Shown piece after piece: positions 16,498-60,834 of a DNA stretch of 64,000 nt. The translations under genes were made by a program, and so were the position numbers. Positions within the stretch are counted from its first letter, which is position 1. Every line of letters starts with the position of its first letter. The notes below the pieces were generated by a model. It was not told the origin of the DNA. It made no database searches and saw nothing but the letters and a program-made list of their open reading frames with translations. Where the stretch lies: NCBI RefSeq assembly GCF_009914755.1, contig NC_060935.1. One strand, given 5' to 3'. The DNA is from the human T2T-CHM13v2.0 reference genome, Homo sapiens.

Positions 16498-16897
<400 letters not shown>

Positions 16898-19859
16898 CAT
16901 AACATTCTTTCTTATGCTTTAGAATGCCATGTATAGGGGCTGACCTACCAAGGAACTTATTGGAAGTTGATTTTCTTTCTTCCAAATCCAAAATTTGCTT
17001 GCTTATATGAGCATAGGACTCATAATTTAAGATAACATAGCGTGTTTTCAGAGCTGCCTTCTGGAACCAATTTCCTAATGCAAATGAATGGCTCTAATAA
17101 TAATATAATTTCAGGCAAGTTAATACGTAGTAAAAAACATCCTTTTGGAAAAGCAGCCATTTCTCTCTCTCTCAGGTTAAACACATTTTCCTGCATATTC
17201 ACTCTTAAGAAGCATTCTTTTTTATTAGAATACAGGTATAAGTGCTGATGCAAGTTTATGATTATAGAGTACTTGAATAAGTTCCAATGCCTTACCTATC
17301 TTACTTTGTCAGAGAAATAGTCCTGCTCAGGGAATTTTGAATTCATTGACAGTTTTTTTAGTCACCTTTAAATTTGTCACTTGACATAGTAGGAAGTACA
17401 TACCCAATTCACCTGGCAATAGGCACTGCAGTATTTTTAATAGCATTTCATAGAAATGTCATATCCAATTAGTAATTTCACCATGCTACCTCAACAATTA
17501 GTGAATTAATCCAGGAAGTGCCTATAAAAATCATACCAGGTAATAGTTTCCTAAGTCATTTACAGTTAATAATATGTTGTCAAGTTTAGATCTCAAGTGT
17601 AATTCAAAGTAGAGTCCATGGTCTTCAGATTTGCTCAGTGACATTGTGAACCAGTAACATACAGGTGCAAAGCTCTAATTTTTTATTCTCTTTTATCTAA
17701 CTCATAATCTTTCCATTTCTCTGTGTGTCTCCACTGCCTCTCTTCATGACTAGAATCATGAGTTGTGTTAGCATTGAACTGTATCTCCTAATCAACTCAG
17801 CTTCTGCCTATTTGTCTTTCCTAGTCAGCGTATGATGAGTTTGGCCAAACTTCCAAAGATAGAATATGCCATTAACATTGATTTTTTAAAATCTGTAATA
17901 GGGTATTGTGTTGGCATTCCTTCATTGAAATTCTAAGTATGTGGATTAATCATAAAATCATATTCTTCAGAACCATTGGAAGTATAATATTCATATGTTT
18001 TCATATATCAAAACCACGTTTGTGCTGTGTCTTCCTATTTGATTTTTCTCTTTTTCCTCTTGTAATATGATAAATTGCAAGAGGCAATTCCTGGTTGTTG
18101 CTTATGAAAATTTCAAGACAAAATCTAGATATGCTTTTTCTAGGGCATTGTTTCAAGACAGTTGCATAGTTAGTTATCTTCCTGCCACCAGGACATAAAT
18201 TAAGCTATTCATTAACCAACTAATATTGTTAAATGTCTACTATAAGAAGGCCTTCAGGGAATACAAAAAGATGCTAATATTTTGTTCTCAAAGAACTCAT
18301 AATTTAGATGAGAAGAAAATGCTCAGTCAAATGAAAAATCAGTTAATAACAGTGAGTTAAATTGGAATGTAATGTGAGTTCAAAGGTTATTAGATATTAT
18401 AAAACTGTCCAATGGATAGTGCAGATAATATTTCTGTTATCCATTTATACTTCACAGCATTTTAGCTAGGCATTGGAGGATAGAATTAAAATTTTGAGTA
18501 CTTTGTAGCCCACTCCTTTGCTTCAGTAGCAGACTATCATAAAACTTGATTTCCTCCTGGGGCCATCTCATCTCAACTTGCCTTTAACTGACCATTCCAG
18601 GCTACCTAATACCTGAACAGAGCACAGACAACTCCTGTACTGACATCAGTATCCATACCCAGGATAAGCTGCTGTGTTGATTTTTTGACCTACTTTTCCT
18701 CTTGAGACTTCAAATTAAAAGATGGCTATGTACCAATAATGTTAGTGGGTACCTTAGGGGATATAAAAATGAAGATGTCATGGTTGTCATTTATATTCTC
18801 ATGTCTTGTGGGATAAACACATAGGTATAAACAATCCAAACCAAGTAGAGTATGATGAGAGCCTTAATAAAGGTAGAAATAAAGCTGTTGTGAACTGACT
18901 TTAACCCAATCTAATAAATATGGCCCAATGTAATAATATAAAAGATCTACCAATGTAAACATTCAGATCCTTTGTGAAAGTTCCTTCAGATTTCCCCTTC
19001 CTCATCCTGCTCCTCTGTAAAATGGCATCTGACTGTGTGGTAGAGGAAGCAATGTTTAAATGACTTTGGAGATTTAATACAAAAACAGGAACTCATAGTG
19101 CGAGGATCTTCGGGAACCACACAAATTATGATATTTGAGGTGTTTGTCTTGTCTAAAAACTGAATCAGTGATTGATAGGCTGCAATTTGTTCTCCCTGAC
19201 TCTTTGGATTAAGATTGTGGGTGGTTAGAGATGACATACTAGTACCTATCATACTGGTCATATCTATGCCCTCAGGGCAGATAGAATCTTTTGGGGTTCC
19301 TGCACACTACGTAATAGTTGATAGCCAGGACCTCTGTTCCAGGCCCACGTGTTTGGATCCCTCCTACCAATGAGTCTATGCTATTTTAGAAGTGGTTCCT
19401 TTCAGACCTCCCTACAAGCTTACAGCCCCTTGCTAGTATCCCAAGAGAAGCATGACACAAGTCCAATGTTCTGAGCTACTCCATCTCTCAGCGCATATTT
19501 CCCCAAAATTGATCAATTACCAAGTAGCAGTGCTTTTGAAGTTCATGCCTAAAAAGGCAAATTTAAATCTTTTTCTTCTTCTATCATATATTCTTACTAC
19601 TCTTAAACAGAAAACCTTGTAACTGTCATTGGTAAAAGGGATATCTTCTCTAGAACTACAGAAGAAATTCTATAATCTAGGTCTTTAGACTTGGTTCATA
19701 TTATTTTAGAGAAATTCGCAAAGTTTGTTTGCTGTCCAAATCTAATAATAAAGCCTAGTATTTTGATGTACAATCTTATTTTGGTTGTTGGATGTTTAAT
19801 ATTAGCTATATATATTTTTATTACTTGATTATTCTAATAAAGATATGCCTGTCCCTACT

Positions 19860-21224: not shown

Positions 21225-23802
<2,578 letters not shown>

Positions 23803-32951: not shown

Positions 32952-33274
32952 TTCTTTCTTTCCTTTCTTTTTTTTTTTTTTTTTTTTTTTTTTTGAGACG
33001 GAGTCTCACTCTTTTGCCCAGGCTGGACTGCAGTGGCGCTATCTCGGCTCACTGCAAGCTCGCTTCCCGGGGTCATGCCATTCTCCTGCCTCAGCCTCCC
33101 AAGTGGCTGGGACTACAGGCGCCCGCTACCACGCCCGGCTAATTTTTTGTATTTTTAGTAGAGACGGGGTTTCACCGTGTTAGCCAGGTTGGTCTCGATC
33201 TCCTGACTTCGTGATCCGCCCACCTCGGCCTCCCAAAGTGCTGGGATTACAGGCGGGAGCCACCGCGCCTGGTC
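32952..33274 (-). mobile_element. AluY (Yk-like diagnostics)
   Basis: 'ggactgcagtggcgctatctcgg'; perfect 16-bp TSD aagcaagttaatttct at 32936-32951 and 33275-33290. Confidence 0.95.
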
Positions 33275-33296
33275 AAGCAAGTTAATTTCTATGCCT

Positions 33297-37872: not shown

Positions 37873-40399
37873 TATTCTGCCTAGAATCTTGTTTTGCAAA
37901 TAGTTTATTTACCTTTTCTTTAATAAAATTATCTTTAAATTTATTGTCAATTATTTTCCAGAAAAAAAAACAGTTTATTATCTGATATCTCTGTTTCCTA
38001 GGGGTGAAAATAAAGTCATTTATTTTACTCTGGGACTTTCTTAGATTCCAGTAATTCTTACTACTTCTCTATGATAGAAAATTAGTGGTTGTTCACTTCA
38101 TACTAATAGTTATATTAAACTTTACTTATGAAATTTATAGAATTCTATAACTTAAAAAAAGCTCTATTTTTGATTTTTCCAGATCTTGGTGTTTTTAGGC
38201 AAAGGAGAACTAACATATGTCAGGCTCCATGAGCTATAAAAATTGTTTATGTGAGGATAATAAAAATGTTCAGAAGACAAACTTACACAAATTCATATTG
38301 GAGATCCAACATCTTTTAGTTTTAAGTATGTCCTTCAGAGAATAATCTGGAAAATTAAATAGAAGAAAACACATATTCTTTACAAATTTCTGTTCTTCTT
38401 TTCAAGATGATTGTTTTCATTATGTCGCTGTCACTGTTACTGGTTACACTAAAAATATTGGAAACTCTTGTAGATGAAGTGTATTGTTACTTGTCCTTAG
38501 AGAAGACTTGAAAACATCTTGAGAGAAGCACTTATAACATCAAAACTTACAGTTCTTTCATTTAAGTTGTTTTTAAAAATTATTCTAGTTTCCATTAACG
38601 TGAAGTGGGCTCTGAGTACAGGATATCAGCAACTTCATACAAGCCTTCAGAAAGCAAATAGTAATTGAGTTTTATATTAATTTTTAGTATTGTAGGATTT
38701 GCCATAATCAGAAAGTACATAGATAATTTTAAATAAACTTTTTAAAAATTTTAGAACACTTTTGAATTTCTGAAAAATTGCAGAGCTTTCATATGCCCAC
38801 ACCCACTTTCCCCTATAAATAACATCTTACATATGCTACGGTCATTATAATTAATGAAAGAGTTTAATACAGTATTAACTAAAGGCCGTAAGTTATTCAG
38901 ATTTCCTTTGTTTTTACCTAAATCCTTTTTCTGTTCCAGAAGACTACATTATACTTTGTTGTCATATCCCCCTGGGGTTGTCTTGGCTGTGGCTTTCCCT
39001 CAGACTTACCTTGTCTTTAAGGACCTAGACAGTTTTAAGGAGTACTGAACAAGTATTTTGTATAATATCCTTCCATTGTGTCTCTCAATCTGCTATTTCT
39101 CTTATAATTAGACTGGGATATGGGTTTCAGAAAGGAAGATAATAGAGGTAAAGTGTTGTTTTCATTACATCATATCAGGAGTACATACTACCAACATGAC
39201 TTACCACTGTTGATGTTGACCTTGCTGAAGTCAACTAACTGAGACAGTGTTTTCCAGGTTTCTCCACTATAAAGTTACTTCCGCACCAATGCTGCCCCAT
39301 GCTCTTTGGAAGAAAGATGCCATGCACAGGCTGCGCTTAAAAAGCAGGAGTTATTCTCCATCTTTTTGAGGACAGAGTATCTATCTACACAGTAATTTGG
39401 AAACTTTTTGCATGCGAGATTTAACTTTCCTTCTCTGTTTATTTATTTTTATAAGTACAAACTCGATATTTAGTTTGTAGTTCAAACTATAATCTAATGA
39501 TACCTTATTCATTATGTTACATTACAGCTCAAGATGTTCCAGCTTAGGCTGCTGAGGACTTACATTGGCTCCTGAGTCCCTTTGACATACCCTCCTCTAT
39601 ATGGGATATTATTCTGTTTTTGTTTTTGTTTTTGTTTTTCTGTTTTTATTATCACTTCCTTACTCTCTGGCATGCTCCAGAATAATCTTGAATATTTCCA
39701 GCCCTAGTTATAGAATGAGCCATTTTTCCAAGAAGCTGGGTTTCTTTCACTGGGGAATGATATTGGAAACAAAGGTTTGGCACTAGGTATGCTCACTGCT
39801 ATTGGAGTGTTGTTGCTTCTAGGCCCTCTCAGCTAACAAAAAACGGGATGGTATGTGGGCACAATAACCCATTAATACACACACGCACACACATAAATTC
39901 CTATATGTAAATTTCCTTATCTTTTGTATCAAAATTAAACCAAACATGGGTTCATACTGACATCTTCCACTCCAGTCTAGTATCATATGGATCATTTAAC
40001 CTCTTCGTAATGCTTTTGTGTAACCTTCCAACCCAACAGTGTAAAATTGAGCTCCCACCATCTTCCAACCATTTACTTAGTTGTTTAATTCAAGTATACA
40101 TATATAGCAATCTCAGAATTTTTAACCTGCACCCCTATAGAAAATAGGTTTATCAACTAGAGTATAATGTTTATGTATAATTTCTCTGCCTTTAGTCTTA
40201 AAAAGTTCTGATATTTCCAAAGTTATTGAGGTCAGCAATTTTTCATCCCAACATACTACAAATGTTGTTTCATACATTTGTAGTATAGTTAGATTCTTTT
40301 GTAGACTCTGTATTCCATCCTGGCATCCCTAACCTTCAAATGAATTTTATAAATTTATATATGTTTAGGATTACTCTTTTTTTTATAAAGTTCTGTGGG

Positions 40400-40766
40400 T
40401 ATATGTTTTGGCTGTGCCCCCACCAAAATTGGATCTTGAACTGTAGTTCCCATAAACCCCATGTGTGGTGGGAGGGACTGTGGGGGAGGTAATTGAATCC
40501 TAGGGGCAGTTTCCCCCATGCTATTCTTGTGATAGTAAGTTCTCAAGACCTGATGGTTTTATAAGGGGCTTTCCCTTTTGCTCGGCTCTCATTCTTTTCC
40601 TTCCTGCTGCCATATGAAGGACATATTTGCTTCCCCTTCTGCCATGATTGTAAGTTTTTGGGGGCCTCCCTAACCATGTGGAGATGTGAGTCAATTAAAC
40701 CTCTTTCCTTTATAACTACCCAGTGTTGGGCAGTTCTTTATAGCAGCATAACAATGAACTAATAGA
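40400..40766 (+). mobile_element. THE1D-like LTR
   Basis: 'atatgttttggctgtg..gagtcaattaaacctctttcctttata..ggcagttctttatagcagc..actaata'. Confidence 0.92.
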
Positions 40767-40790
40767 GTAACTTGTCTTGGTACTAAAATC

Positions 40791-41341
40791 TGTATTAGGG
40801 TCCTTAGAGGGACAGAACTAATAGGGTATATGTATATATGAAAGGATGTTTAATGAGAATGGAGCCACATGATCACAAGATAAAGTCCCATGATAGGCAA
40901 TCTTCGAGTTGAGGAACAAAGAAACTAGTGGTGGATCAGTCCGAGTTCCAAAACCTCAAAAGTAGGGAAGCCGACAGTGCAGCTTCAGTCAGGGGCCAAA
41001 GTCCCGAGAGCCCCTGGCAAACCACTGGTGTAAGTCTAAGCGTCCAAAAGCTGAAGAACTTGGGAGCCCAATGTTCAAGGGAAGGAAGCATCCAGCACAG
41101 GAGAAAGATGAAGGCTGGAAGACTCAGCAAGTCTGCTCTTCCATCTTCTCCTGACTGCTTTATTCTAGCGGCACTGACAGCTGATTAGATGGTGCTCACC
41201 CAGATTGAGGGTCTGTTTCTCTCTCCCATTCCAGTGACTCAAATGTTAATCTCCTTTGGCAACACCCTCACAGACACACCCAGGAACAATACTGTGCATC
41301 CTTCAATCCAATCAAGTGGACACTCAATATTAATCCTCACA
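40791..41341 (-). mobile_element. MLT2A (HERV-L) LTR
   Basis: 'tgtattaggg..agagggacagaactaatagg..catccttcaatccaatcaagtggacactcaatattaatcctcaca'. Confidence 0.92.
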
Positions 41342-44069
41342 GTGGGTTTTTCAAATGCATAATGTCACATCTGTCATTATAGTACGATACAGAAGTTTGA
41401 TCACTGTAAAAAAAAATTCTCTTGTATTTTAACTATTTAATTCTCTCAATTAGTTCCCAAGTTCCTGGCAGCCACAGATCTTTCCACTATCTCTATAGTT
41501 TTGCCTTTTTAAGAAGGTGATAAAATAGGAATCACACATTATATAGTCTTTAGACTGGCTTTTTTCACTTACCAATATGCCTTTAAGTTTTCCTTCATGA
41601 CTTTCATGTTTTGATATCAGTAAATCAAGTTTGCTGAAGTTTTTATCATGCATGAGTGTTGTATTTTGTGAAATGCTTTTTCAATCCATACATATTTTGA
41701 GCAATAATTTTAAGTTTTCTGTTTTTGCACCATAAAGTTTATATTATTTCAAAATTAACTTATATTGGTTTTGATGATATTTCACATTTATTGACCTCTT
41801 ATTATGTGCTAAAATGTTCTATCCAGTTTATATTACATTTAATAGCCTAATATTTTATGGGTATTCCACTGTACAGTTTGTCCCTTCACCTATGGAGGAC
41901 AAATTGGTTGCTTCCAGCTATTGGCAATTATGAATAAAACTGCTATAAATATTCATGTGCAGGTTTTTGTGTGAACATACATATTTTCAAATTAGTTGGG
42001 CAAATACCAAGGAACATGATTGCTGGGGTCTATGATAAGACTATACTTAGCTTTGTAAGAAACTGGAAATCTGTTTTCAAAGTGACTGTACCATTTTGCA
42101 TTCCCACCAGCAATGAATGAGAATTCCTGTTGCTCCATATCCTTGCCACGAACTTGTATTGTTCATTTTTGGGGTTTTATCTACATTAATGGGCATATAG
42201 TGGTATGTCATTGTTGTTTTAACTTGCAATTACCCAATAACAAATTAATACTGAGTATATTTATGTAAGGTTTTGTTTTTGACACTGCTCTGTCTTCTTT
42301 GGTGAGATGTCTGTTCAAATATTTTCCCCATTTTTTACTTGTGTTCTTTGTTTTCTTATGGATGAGTTTTAAACAATTTTTTCTATCTTTTCAATATAAA
42401 ATCTATATCAGATATGTGCTTTGCAAATATTTTCTCCCAGTGTGTAGCTTATATTTTTATTCTTTTAACAGTTTTCCTCACAGAAGTTTTTCATTTCAAT
42501 AAAGTCCACCTTATCAGTTTTTCTCATGGATTGTGCTTTTGGCTTTGTACAAACTTGTCACCAAACACAAGGCCAAATGGGTTTTCCACTATGTTTTCTT
42601 CTAGAAGTTTTATTGTTTAACATCTTATATTTAGGTCTATCGTTAGGTTCATGTTCCATTTTTAGTTAAGTTTTGTGAGATGTGTAAGGTCTGAGTGTAA
42701 GTTCATTTTTTTAATATGGACAAATAATTGTTTCATTAATTGTTTATACTACATTTAATATTTCCAACATATCTGTATTTCCCCTTTTATTGATACAATA
42801 CCAACAAAATATAAAGACTGTCCTTTATCCATTGAATTGTAGTTTCTTCTTTGGCAAGAATCAGTTACCTATTTTGTATGTATCTATTTTGGGGCTCTTC
42901 ATTCTGTTCCACTATCATACTGTCTTTATTATTGTAACTTGACAGTGATTCTTGAAAACAGATAAGCGACACATTCTACTTTGTTTATCTTCAGTATTTT
43001 ATTGGCTATTCTAGGACTTTGCCTTCCTATATAAATTTAGAATCAGTATTTTGATACCTATAAAATGGTTTGCTGGGGTTTTCATAAAAGTTGCACTGAA
43101 ACTACAGATCAAGTTAAGACGAATTGCGATTTTAATGATAGGGATTCTTCCAATCCATGAACACAGAATCTCTCTCCATTTATTTCAATCTTCTTTAATT
43201 TCTTTCATCAGAGTTCTATACTTTTTTGTAAATAATCTGTTCATATTTTGCTCAATTTATACATTAGTATATCATCTTTGGTGCTATTTAATTTTTTTAA
43301 TTTCAAATTTCAATTGTTTGGTGCTGATATATAGGAAATCAGTTGACTTTGATGTGTTGTTAACTTTGTGGCCTGCTACTTTGCTATAGTCACCAGTTTC
43401 TAGATTTTTTCTGTCAATTCTTTGGGATTTTTTTTTTTTTACATAGACATAGACATTTACATAGACATTTACATAGACAGTCATATCATCTACAACTAAA
43501 GAGCTGTATTTCTTCCTTACAATGTGTATACTTTAAATTGTGTACTTCTTATTTTCCTTTTTGTATTATTGACTATCTAGGACTTTTAATATGATGTTAA
43601 ACATAATGGCATGAGAGGGGACATCCTTGTCTTATTGATAATTTTATTGAGAAAGTGTCCATTATCTCATCATAAAGTATGATGCTATTTGTAGGATTTT
43701 GTCAATGTTCTTTACCAAATTGCAGAAGTTTCCATCTGTTTCAAGTTTGCTAAAGTTTTTATTATGCGTTGAGTGTTGGATTTTGTGAAATGCTTTTTAA
43801 ATCCATATATATAGAGAGAGAGCAATAATTTTAAGTCATATTTTTCTACTATAAGCTTATGTCATTTCAAAATCAAATTAGATTGGCTTTGATGATATTT
43901 CACATCTGTTGACCTCTTATGTGCCAAACTGTTCAATGTAGTTTATACTACATTTAATATTTCCAACATATCTGTATTTCCCATTTTATTGATAAAATAT
44001 GAGACCCACAGAAGTTAAATAAATTCTTTTTCCCCTTTTACATTTTCTACATCTATATTCATTTCATGT

Positions 44070-57544: not shown

Positions 57545-57842
57545 ACCAACCTCAGACTTGCTGTTTGACGATATGACTTACTTGCAACAGTGGAGATTGT
57601 CTGCAGGTGTCAGCTGCCGATTGTGAGCAGAGGCTTTCAGAAGCAGTGCCCCAGAGCTTTGCTTGCCCTCCTGAGAACAGCATGCCCAACAGCGACCCCG
57701 CCTTCCGTCCATGTTCCGGAATGAGACAGTACATGGCACAGAGCCGAGCCCCGCCAATCTCAGATGAGCCCCGCCCAGTCACTGCCAGCCCACAGACCTA
57801 CAATAGCAGGTCCTCTTTGCCACAGCCAAAGCTATCTAATGT
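57545..57842 (+). mobile_element. Old MLT1 (H/I/J-like) LTR remnant, CpG-retaining, with GC boxes and CCAAT
   Basis: 'tgagaacagcatgccc..ggaatgagacagtacatggcacagagccgagccc', end 'cagccaaagctatctaat'. Confidence 0.55.
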
Positions 57843-57902
57843 CGATATATATTTAAACAGGAAAAAAAAATGCCTTACAGAGTTTAAAAGAATTAGTGGA
57901 CC

Positions 57903-58197
57903 GGCCGGGCGCGGTGGCTCACGCCTCTAATCCCAGCACTTTGGGAGGCCAAGGCGGGCGGACGAAGAGGTCAGGAGATCGAGACCATCTTGGCGAACAC
58001 GGTAAAACCCTGTCTCTACTAAAAATACAAAAAATTAGCCGGGCGTGGTGGCGGGCGCCTGTAGTCCCAGCTACTCAGGAGGCTGAGGCAGGAAAATGGC
58101 GTGAACCCGGGAGGCGGAGTTTGCAGTGAGCCGAGATCGCGCCACCGCACTGCAGCCTGGGAGACAGAGCGAAACTCCGTCTCAGAAAGAAAGAAAA
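57903..58197 (+). mobile_element. AluY
   Basis: CpG-rich; TSD aaaagaattagtggacc on both sides. Confidence 0.96.
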
Positions 58198-58410
58198 AAA
58201 AGAATTAGTGGACCACTATTTACTAACTGTGTAACCCAAACTCAGACCTTCTGAATGTTAGACAAATTCTTTTTACATAACATCACAGTGAGTTCTTAAC
58301 TAAAGAAGGGTAACTTCTTTAAGAAGTTATTCATATTTATACAAGGCAGGCATTTGCCCTTGAAAAGCTTTCTGTCTCCTCGGATCCACCAGGAATAGAA
58401 AATCTTTCTC

Positions 58411-58908
<498 letters not shown>

Positions 58909-59685: not shown

Positions 59686-60498
<813 letters not shown>

Positions 60499-60834
60499 TC
60501 AGAACATTTTTAATGTCCTGGAGAAGAAAGATTTTGTAAAACCCATCCTATGGAGTGCCAAGGAAAATTTATTCCCTACGAAGGTAATGGAGAATGCAAA
60601 AAAATATGTAATTTTACAAAGTTTATAAACATAACTCATTTTGAAATTTTGCATTGATATGATAGCATCATAATTTTCTGTTTAGTAATCATATTTGAAT
60701 TTAACACTGTGTGACAGCAGCACATGTATGTGACTATGTGTGTAATGGAGCAGACAAAAATAACAAAATTCTCCATTATAGCTACCAGTATCTCTAGTGC
60801 CACAATCAGACTGTTCTTCATTTACTGTGTCATT

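What the first reader, a model, noticed from the sequence alone, without database searches (positions are those of the whole stretch)
40395..41346. THE1 LTR and HERV-L (MLT2A) LTR fused PBS-to-PBS in opposite orientation inside a single 5-bp TSD: candidate chimeric co-integrant
Seen: GTGGG (40395-40399), then a THE1D-like LTR (+), a 24-nt linker 'gtaacttgtcttggtactaaaatc', an MLT2A LTR (-), and GTGGG again (41342-41346). The host L1MC reads through ('aagttctgtggg|tttttcaaatgcata') with no apparent loss. The left part of the linker resembles the THE1-int start (gtaaattg, compare 21572 in this window). The right part reverse-complements to 'gattttagtaccaag', resembling the HERV-L internal start/PBS. 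Established: ERVL and MaLR elements make 5-bp TSDs, MaLRs lack pol and are thought to borrow ERVL machinery, and plus-strand strong-stop DNA is U3-R-U5-PBS. Inference: strong-stop cDNAs from two different families joined near their shared palindromic TGGTACCA PBS, leaving two U3 ends outward, and were integrated as one unit. That would be fossil evidence of THE1/HERV-L co-packaging. It would also place two LTR promoters convergently. The junction is not exactly at the palindrome, so end-joining is equally possible.
Basis: partly seen in the sequence, partly recalled or inferred. Interest (0 to 1): 0.85.

Follow-up and report, generated by a model that had tools for sequence, protein, structure and literature searches.

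The report
Two retroelement LTRs inserted as one unit
Two complete end-repeats from different but related ancient retroelement families (a THE1-type MaLR and an ERV-L) sit head-to-head inside one 5-base target duplication, so they entered the genome together in one integration event, a rare fossil linking the two families' mobilisation.

Summary
A complete 367-bp MaLR (THE1-type) LTR (+, 40400-40766) and a complete 551-bp ERV-L LTR (-, 40791-41341; MLT2A2-like by length) face each other U5-to-U5. They are separated by 24 nt. Of these, 8 nt are the MaLR leader plus PBS start, and 16 nt are the reverse complement of the ERV-L leader plus the first 11 nt of the same tRNA-Leu(UAA) PBS. Both U3 ends abut GTGGG. 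Four of five informative copies of the old host repeat place both flanks on the same 5 bases, so this is a true 5-bp duplication with no host loss. Window-private divergence is equal in the two LTRs (8.7% and 8.0%). Published work puts both families in stem simians only, roughly 40-65 Mya. Nested insertion cannot explain the structure. A single integrase event that used two U3 ends is the best reading. A strong-stop DNA origin and co-packaging remain inference. The junction shows no homology in its simplest reading. Low-sensitivity pattern scans of T2T-CHM13 found no second case, and six literature searches found no precedent. Orthologues could not be checked. The THE1D and L1MC labels were not testable.

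The parts
40113..40394 (.). Left flank of the old interspersed host repeat.
   Evidence: 70-74% identity to many genomic copies. Copy L021 aligns from window 40113 to 40399.
40395..40399 (.). Left copy of the 5-bp target-site duplication GTGGG.
   Evidence: The host repeat has a single [A/G]TGGG here.
40400..40766 (+). Complete MaLR (THE1-type) LTR, U3-R-U5, 367 bp, with its U3 end outward.
   Evidence: 81-84% over 2-365 of 367. (family ends TGATATGG...ACTAATACA; copies are followed by GTAAAT plus PBS). (68-69% to the two LTRs of the full-length MaLR at 21230-23800).
40767..40774 (+). MaLR leader (6 nt) plus the first 2 nt of the PBS. Matches 7 of 8 bases of the family's GTAAATTG.
40775..40790 (-). 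ERV-L leader GATTT (5 of 5) plus the first 11 nt of the tRNA-Leu(UAA) PBS (9 of 11), read on the minus strand.
   Evidence: L002 and L010 read CTAATACA GATTT TGGTACCAGGAATGG..
40791..41341 (-). Complete ERV-L LTR (MLT2A2-like by length), 551 bp, with its U3 end outward.
   Evidence: 84-88% over 1-551. (ends; 4 of 29 copies carry a conserved purine-rich upstream flank). (a dUTPase hit upstream of such a 3' LTR). PMC8559712 passages (consensus lengths).
41342..41346 (.). Right copy of the 5-bp target-site duplication GTGGG.
41347..41616 (.). Right flank of the same host repeat.
   Evidence: copy L015 aligns up to query position 275, which is window 41616.

Best explanation
About 40-65 million years ago, in a stem simian germ line, an ERV-L-type integrase inserted one short linear DNA into an old interspersed repeat. 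That DNA was made of two 5'-LTR ends joined tail to tail:
- a THE1-type MaLR LTR with its leader and PBS start, and
- an ERV-L (MLT2A2-like) LTR with its leader and 11 nt of the same tRNA-Leu(UAA) PBS.

Both outer termini were U3 ends, and the insertion made the usual 5-bp duplication.

The most likely source is two nascent plus-strand strong-stop DNAs (U3-R-U5-leader-PBS) made side by side in one particle. They became one duplex when one strand jumped to, or was joined with, the other near the PBS and each was copied to the other's 5' end. That step creates two blunt U3 termini.

Shown here: the anatomy, the single duplication, host continuity, equal divergence, and the shared att-like ends and PBS.
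Inferred: the strong-stop origin, joining before integration, and co-packaging.
For: - One 5-bp duplication with uninterrupted host sequence.
- Both LTRs are full length with family-typical termini.
- Each LTR carries its own leader and PBS start on its inner side: 7 of 8 and 14 of 16 bases. Each is therefore a 5'-LTR-type end, not the boundary of a nested insertion.
- The internal remnants are no longer than a strong-stop tail: 8 nt and 16 nt, against leader plus 18 nt.
- Window-private differences are 30 of 345 columns (8.7%) for the left LTR and 43 of 536 (8.0%) for the right.
- 5-bp duplications are the rule in both families. Left type: 6 perfect and 6 with 4 of 5 matching, of 29. Right type: 9 and 7, of 29.
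- Both families share the U5 end CTAATACA and a PBS that matches the complement of the tRNA-Leu(TAA)1-1 3' end at 17 of 18 bases.
- The right LTR type flanks an internal region with a dUTPase hit. The ERVL lineage is the dUTPase-bearing ERV3 lineage (PMC5753468, passages).
- Both families are reported as simian-only and active at overlapping times (PMC10735291 and PMC8559712, passages).
- MaLR has only a putative gag and cannot replicate alone (PMC10735291, passage).
Against: - This is a single locus. No second case was found, although the scans needed exact 7-9-mers and are insensitive.
- In the simplest reading the junction has no homology, so the palindrome is not visibly used.
- The left LTR lacks one base of the terminal TG.
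- Orthologous loci were not examined, so all-or-none presence is untested.
- Divergence was measured against the 29 best-scoring copies of each family, a biased sample. Both window LTRs are more diverged than every comparator (comparator maxima 7.1% and 6.5%).
Confidence: 0.55

Rival explanations
1. Two-donor integration followed by host end joining. One intasome held the U3 ends of two separate short LTR duplexes, one MaLR and one ERV-L, and inserted both with a 5-bp stagger. The host then joined the two free, nibbled PBS ends by non-homologous end joining.
For: The junction is non-homologous and the PBS remnants are unequal (2 nt and 11 nt). [quoted passage not shown] The duplication, host continuity and equal ages fit this reading as well as the best one.
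Against: It needs two separate blunt-ended LTR duplexes, each broken near its PBS, and a chromosome break that is repaired without loss. Sequence cannot separate this from joining before integration.
Confidence: 0.22
2. The two plus-strand strong-stop DNAs annealed through the 8-nt palindrome TGGTACCA of the shared PBS, exactly. A 5-nt insertion arose in the junction later.
For: The linker can be read as MaLR leader, 5 extra bases, TGGTACTA, then the reverse complement of the ERV-L leader. The extra bases nearly repeat their neighbours (CTTG-T-CTTG). The PBS does start with that palindrome.
Against: It needs an extra event in a 24-nt stretch. The three bases next to the palindrome also fit the ERV-L PBS at 2 of 3 positions, the mismatch being a transition, which needs no insertion. 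The 10-nt 3' tails beyond the palindrome would also have had to be removed.
Confidence: 0.12
3. A longer aberrant chimeric DNA, with internal sequence between the two PBS regions, was integrated. A later deletion removed the middle.
For: The outer-end evidence is the same. Inverted homologous leaders could favour a central deletion; the MaLR and ERV-L-LTR elements share about 1.2 kb of 74-78% identical internal sequence.
Against: Both deletion ends would have to fall within a few bases of the two PBS starts.
Confidence: 0.07
4. Independent insertions (one element nested in or next to the other) followed by deletions, with the flanking GTGGG pair arising by chance; or an assembly error.
For: Head-to-head LTR pairs made by ordinary nesting do exist: L086, L087 and L108.
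Against: In those pairs only one partner's internal sequence lies between the LTRs. Here each LTR has its own leader. Both U3 ends abut a real duplication of host bases. Producing this by deletion would need two deletions exact to the base. The assembly is a telomere-to-telomere reference.
Confidence: 0.04

Closest known systems
Ordinary nested or adjacent LTR insertions (examples found here: L086, L087, L108)
   Same: Two LTRs of MaLR or ERV-L type in opposite orientation with their U5 ends facing and a short spacer.
   Different: In nested pairs the spacer holds internal sequence of one partner only, and each element has its own duplication. Here both partners keep their own leader and PBS start, and one duplication bounds the pair.
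Recombinant ERVs made from co-packaged RNAs (for example HARLEQUIN, described in PMC5753468, passage)
   Same: Sequences of two ERV families are joined in one integrated unit, which implies both were in one particle.
   Different: Those are collinear mosaics in one orientation with normal U3 and U5 ends. This is an inverted LTR-LTR dimer with no internal region and two U3 ends.
Coordinated integration of two donor DNA molecules in vitro (PMC2857682, passage and its references)
   Same: Two separate LTR ends are inserted into one target with the virus-specific stagger.
   Different: It is known as a test-tube reaction with designed substrates. Here a natural germ-line product would have to be inferred, with host repair of the inner ends.
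Aberrant unintegrated retroviral DNA forms (2-LTR circle junctions, autointegration products with inverted LTRs) and inverted Ty1 cDNA multimers. These are recalled, not from any call.
   Same: LTRs are joined to each other by errors of reverse transcription or by end joining.
   Different: Circle junctions are U5-to-U3 in tandem and are not integrated with a duplication. The recalled cases involve one family, not two.

Membership tests
MaLR (THE1-type) LTR | Full-length homology to LTRs that carry TG...CA ends | tested here: met
   81-84% over 2-365 of 367; the ends are TGATATGG...ACTAATACA in the 29 copies. The window copy has T-ATATG at the start and GA for CA at the end.
MaLR (THE1-type) LTR | The same LTR type flanks a short pol-less internal region that begins with a leader and a tRNA-Leu PBS | tested here: met
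   L028, L032, L053, L004, L005 and L009 continue with GTAAAT plus PBS; the window element at 21230-23800 has two LTRs about 1.9 kb apart and holds an Alu. PMC10735291 passage: MaLR has only a putative gag.
MaLR (THE1-type) LTR | 5-bp target-site duplication | tested here: met
   6 perfect and 6 with 4 of 5 matching, of 29 copies.
MaLR (THE1-type) LTR | Assignment to subfamily THE1D (against THE1A-C or MST) | not testable with these tools
   No repeat consensus library is on hand and none may be built. The 367-bp length and the TGATATGG start fit THE1 only from recall.
ERV-L (HERV-L, MLT2A-type) LTR | Full-length homology to an LTR family with TG...CA ends and 5-bp duplications | tested here: met
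   (84-88% over 1-551). (ends). (9 perfect and 7 with 4 of 5 matching, of 29).
ERV-L (HERV-L, MLT2A-type) LTR | The LTR type is linked to an internal region that encodes dUTPase at the 3' end of pol | tested here: met
   1 of 6 ORF pieces taken upstream of three 3' LTR copies hits Pfam PF00692 (E 2.2e-06, 27.9 bits, cut-off 22). The piece lies roughly 0.5-0.8 kb upstream of the LTR in L062. PMC5753468 passage: the ERVL lineage encodes dUTPase. This rests on a single hit, so the support is modest.
ERV-L (HERV-L, MLT2A-type) LTR | PBS complementary to tRNA-Leu | tested here: met
   the L002 PBS matches the complement of the tRNA-Leu(TAA)1-1 3' end (15 gene bases plus CCA) at 17 of 18 positions. 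One representative of each of the other four Leu isoacceptors gave 12-14 of 18. PMC524511 abstract: ERV-Ls are primed with tRNA leucine.
ERV-L (HERV-L, MLT2A-type) LTR | Subfamily MLT2A1 or MLT2A2 | tested here: inconclusive
   Length only. The window LTR is 551 bp and its closest copies 533-556 bp, against consensus lengths of 444 bp (MLT2A1) and 549 bp (MLT2A2) from a PMC8559712 passage. No alignment to a library was possible.
Single-event chimeric co-integrant | One duplication bounds the pair, none bounds either LTR alone, and the host sequence is otherwise uninterrupted | tested here: met
   (4 of 5 informative host copies show exactly a 5-base overlap, and 1 is offset by one base).
Single-event chimeric co-integrant | Equal age of the two halves | tested here: met
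   private differences of 8.7% and 8.0%. Pairwise distance to copies is 17.3% and 14.3%; among copies it is 14.4% and 11.8%.
Single-event chimeric co-integrant | All-or-none presence at orthologous loci | not testable with these tools
   No primate genomes other than this reference are reachable.
Single-event chimeric co-integrant | Recurrence: further pairs of the same build in the genome | tested here: not met
   no second two-sided match among 40 scored of 1723 candidates; 96 sites against 33 in the control. Of the first 50 listed, 20 were inspected; 2 are LTR pairs and both look nested; 5+3 matches against 4+3 in the control, none of this build. Sensitivity is low, so rarity is shown but absence is not.

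The most novel reading that the evidence does not exclude
This locus is a physical fossil of one particle that held both a THE1-type MaLR RNA and an ERV-L (MLT2A2-type) RNA. Their two nascent plus-strand strong-stop DNAs were copied onto each other, and the ERV-L integrase inserted the product through two U3 ends. That would be the first direct sequence evidence naming the helper that mobilised the pol-less THE1 elements. It would also show that a class III integrase can complete a U3/U3 integration in a germ line.
Probability: 0.4. Interest if true: 0.75.

Novelty: new variant of a known kind. Interest (0 to 1): 0.6.

Why it matters
MaLR elements make up about 4% of the genome, yet they carry only a putative gag and so cannot copy themselves (PMC10735291, passages). 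Which element supplied their polymerase and integrase has been inferred only from sequence kinship.

A heterologous LTR-LTR unit inside one duplication ties a THE1-type element and an ERV-L element to the same integration event, and so to the same time, cell and integrase. It also records a rare failure mode of reverse transcription or integration: two U3 ends used, and no coding region carried.

It gives a clear search image for finding further cases in annotated primate genomes. It also places two LTR promoters in convergent orientation within an intron of the lncRNA LOC105369468. No function is claimed for that.

Tried and rejected
Nested insertion was rejected. The 8 nt after the left LTR match the MaLR leader and PBS start at 7 of 8 positions. 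They match what a continued ERV-L PBS would read there at 1 of 7. Both U3 ends abut the duplication.

Chance duplication was rejected on the host-repeat alignments.

Attempts to find further cases:
- The junction was used as a DNA query. No second two-sided match appeared.
- Pattern of two facing LTR ends: 96 sites against 33 in the control. I inspected 20 of the first 50 listed sites; 46 sites were not listed by the tool. Eighteen were chance 9-mers or one LTR plus a chance 9-mer. L086 and L087 are LTR pairs with one partner's internal piece only.
- Pattern with a PBS core: counts were not above the control.
  - L107 is a 20-nt inverted duplication inside a MaLR leader.
  - L108 is a nested pair.
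  - L109 is one LTR plus a chance match.
  - L110 is a short palindromic duplication at an ERV-L LTR end.

Naming the right LTR through L002's neighbourhood failed. The 6 kb beyond it (L106) holds Alus and no second LTR. Naming then succeeded through 3' LTR copies.

Naming the host repeat failed: 8 ORF pieces gave no Pfam hit.

Six literature searches showed no report of a heterologous head-to-head LTR pair in one duplication. That is all that 'not in print' rests on.

Supplements were closed. The supplementary tables of PMC8559712 (coordinates of all MLT2A copies) and of PMC10735291 (insertion lists) might name or date this very copy, and I could not see them.

How much of each paper I saw:
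- PMC10735291, PMC5753468, PMC8559712 and PMC2857682: passages found by term.
- PMC524511: abstract in a search listing.

The neutral rate of 2.2e-9 per site per year, the typical THE1 length, and the aberrant retroviral and Ty1 DNA forms are recalled, not from any call.

Full report
**What is there.** One search shows the following layout on the + strand:
- GTGGG (40395-40399);
- a 367-bp LTR (40400-40766);
- a 24-nt linker (40767-40790);
- a 551-bp LTR read on the minus strand (40791-41341);
- GTGGG again (41342-41346).

All coordinates and quoted letters of the finding are correct.

**The two LTRs are complete members of two different families.**
- The left LTR finds own-genome copies that cover query positions 2-365 of 367 at 81-84% identity (40 scored of 9216 first-look candidates).
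- In the 29 fetched copies, the family starts TGATATGG and ends ACTAATACA.
- The window copy starts T-ATATG, one base short. It ends GA where the family has CA.
- The right LTR finds copies that cover 1-551 of 551 at 84-88% (40 scored of 3815). That family starts TGTGATGG and ends CTAATACA.
- The two families share the U5 end. Their U3 ends are also similar (both read ATGGTT a few bases in), as expected if one integrase served both. That last point is inference.

**Family names: left LTR.**
- Copies of the left type are followed by GTAAAT and then TGGTACCAGGAGTGGGGT and a non-coding internal region.
- The window itself holds a full-length element of this kind at 21230-23800, with an Alu inside it.
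- This is the MaLR build. MaLR has only a putative gag and cannot replicate alone (PMC10735291, passage).
- The THE1D label could not be tested.

**Family names: right LTR.**
- Four of the 29 closest copies carry a conserved purine-rich flank upstream, so they are 3' LTRs.
- Of 6 ORF pieces taken as they stand upstream of three of them, 1 hits Pfam dUTPase (E 2.2e-06, 27.9 bits against a cut-off of 22).
- That piece lies roughly 0.5-0.8 kb from the LTR.
- The ERVL lineage is the ERV3 lineage that encodes dUTPase, and HERVL pairs with MLT2A1 and MLT2A2 (PMC5753468, passages).
- The 551-bp length fits MLT2A2 (consensus 549 bp) better than MLT2A1 (444 bp) (PMC8559712, passage).

**The primer-binding site (PBS).** The PBS of both families matches the complement of the 3' end of tRNA-Leu(TAA)1-1 at 17 of 18 bases. 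One representative of each of the other four Leu isoacceptors gave 12-14 of 18. Its first 8 bases are the palindrome TGGTACCA.

**The linker.**
- Its first 8 nt (GTAACTTG) match the MaLR leader plus the first 2 PBS bases at 7 of 8 positions.
- Its last 16 nt, read on the minus strand, are the ERV-L leader GATTT (5 of 5) plus 11 PBS bases (9 of 11, both differences being transitions).
- Each LTR is therefore followed, on its inner side, by the start of its own internal region.
- That marks both as 5'-LTR-type ends.
- Neither remnant is longer than a plus-strand strong-stop tail.

**One duplication, no host loss.**
- The flanks belong to an old interspersed repeat that is 70-74% identical to its copies.
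- Fifteen copies were fetched. Six matched both flanks and five were informative at the site.
- In four of these, the last 5 bases of the left flank and the first 5 of the right flank map to the same 5 bases. In the fifth they are offset by one base within a G run.
- Alignment A3 shows the uninterrupted host reading TTCT[A/G]TGGGTTTTGAC.
- Neither LTR alone is bounded by a repeat (2 of 5 and 0 of 5 bases).
- Five-base duplications are the rule in both families (12 of 29 and 16 of 29 with at least 4 of 5 matching).

**Age.**
For each alignment column I counted the share of the 29 closest copies that agree with the window.
- Window-private differences are 30 of 345 callable columns (8.7%) for the left LTR and 43 of 536 (8.0%) for the right.
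- Median pairwise distances are 17.3% and 14.3% from the window to the copies, and 14.4% and 11.8% among the copies.
- Under a star tree this gives about 10.1% and 8.4% on the window lineage (my arithmetic on the figures).
- The two halves are equal within sampling error.
- With a recalled neutral rate of 2.2e-9 per site per year, this is roughly 40-50 million years.
- The comparators are the best-scoring copies, so they are biased towards low divergence.
- Published work places both families in simians only. THE1 and MSTA/B arose after the tarsier split, and THE1 fossils are more than 40 My old (PMC10735291, passages). MLT2A1 and MLT2A2 were inserted about 45-65 Mya (PMC8559712, passage).

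**What it means.**
- Both outer termini are U3 ends lying against one real duplication.
- So the DNA that was integrated already had, or was given in the same reaction, a MaLR U3 end on one side and an ERV-L U3 end on the other.
- Nested insertion does occur: L086, L087 and L108 are examples. It leaves one partner's internal sequence between the LTRs and separate duplications. It cannot give this structure without two deletions exact to the base.

**How the two halves met is inference.**
- My preferred reading is two nascent plus-strand strong-stop DNAs in one particle, one jumping onto or being joined to the other near the PBS.
- Each is then copied to the other's 5' end. That step also explains how two blunt U3 termini arise.
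- In the simplest reading the junction lies between PBS base 2 of the MaLR side and PBS base 11 of the ERV-L side, with no homology.
- This fits an end-to-end template jump or end joining better than annealing at the palindrome.
- The palindrome reading needs a later 5-nt insertion.
- A two-donor integration followed by host repair is a serious rival (PMC2857682, passage). Sequence cannot separate it from the preferred reading.

**Is it recurrent?**
- Not as far as these tools can see. The junction used as a query finds no second two-sided match.
- A pattern of two facing LTR ends gives 96 sites against 33 in the control.
- I inspected 20 of the first 50 listed sites, and none has this build. 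A further 46 sites were not listed by the tool.
- A pattern that adds the PBS core is not above its control, and none of the matches I followed up has this build.
- These scans need exact 7-9-mers in elements that are 8-10% diverged, and the window's own site fails them. They show rarity, not absence.

**Novelty.**
- Six literature searches showed no description of such a pair.
- The element families, the PBS and the duplication length are all known.
- The new feature is the arrangement: a heterologous, inverted, coding-free LTR dimer integrated as one unit.
- I file it as a new variant of a known kind and score interest at 0.6.
- It is a single fossil. But it bears directly on which element mobilised the pol-less MaLRs, and it gives a search image for a census.

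Noticed in passing
window 21230-23800: A full-length MaLR element. LTRs lie at about 21230-21572 and 23447-23800, each only 68-69% identical to the finding's left LTR. The internal region starts GTAAATTGGTACC and is interrupted by an Alu at about 22040-22330.
   Followed up: partly
L002 (G000 C15:98549285-98552363), minus strand: An LTR 78% identical to the finding's ERV-L LTR is followed by the tRNA-Leu PBS. After that come about 1.2 kb that are 74-78% identical to the MaLR internal region of the window (21564-23012). So ERV-L-type LTRs and THE1-type LTRs can flank homologous internal sequence. The next 6 kb (L106) hold Alus and no second LTR.
   Followed up: partly
L107 (G000 C8:132593680-132594730), positions 501-547: Inside the leader of a full-length MaLR there is a perfect 20-nt inverted copy of 'U5 end, leader, PBS start', placed 7 nt after the original. 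It looks like a small fold-back at the palindromic PBS.
   Followed up: partly
L110 (G000 C3:76186466-76187866), around position 700: A short palindromic duplication of the last ~17-26 nt of an ERV-L-type LTR sits at its U5 end. There is no second LTR.
   Followed up: partly
L086 (G000 C3:168411182-168411462) and L087 (G000 C3:113668404-113668692): Head-to-head MaLR LTR pairs with 43 and 51 nt between them. In both, the spacer is the leader, PBS and early internal sequence of the left partner only. They look like ordinary nested insertions. Their duplications were not checked.
   Followed up: partly
window 16600-16900, 32970-33280, 57900-58720, 60200-60500 and others: Many Alu copies lie across the window, seen as 80-90% matches to the Alus in L106. 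The finding lies in an intron of the lncRNA LOC105369468 (exons at 38287-38644 and 57582-58097).
   Followed up: no
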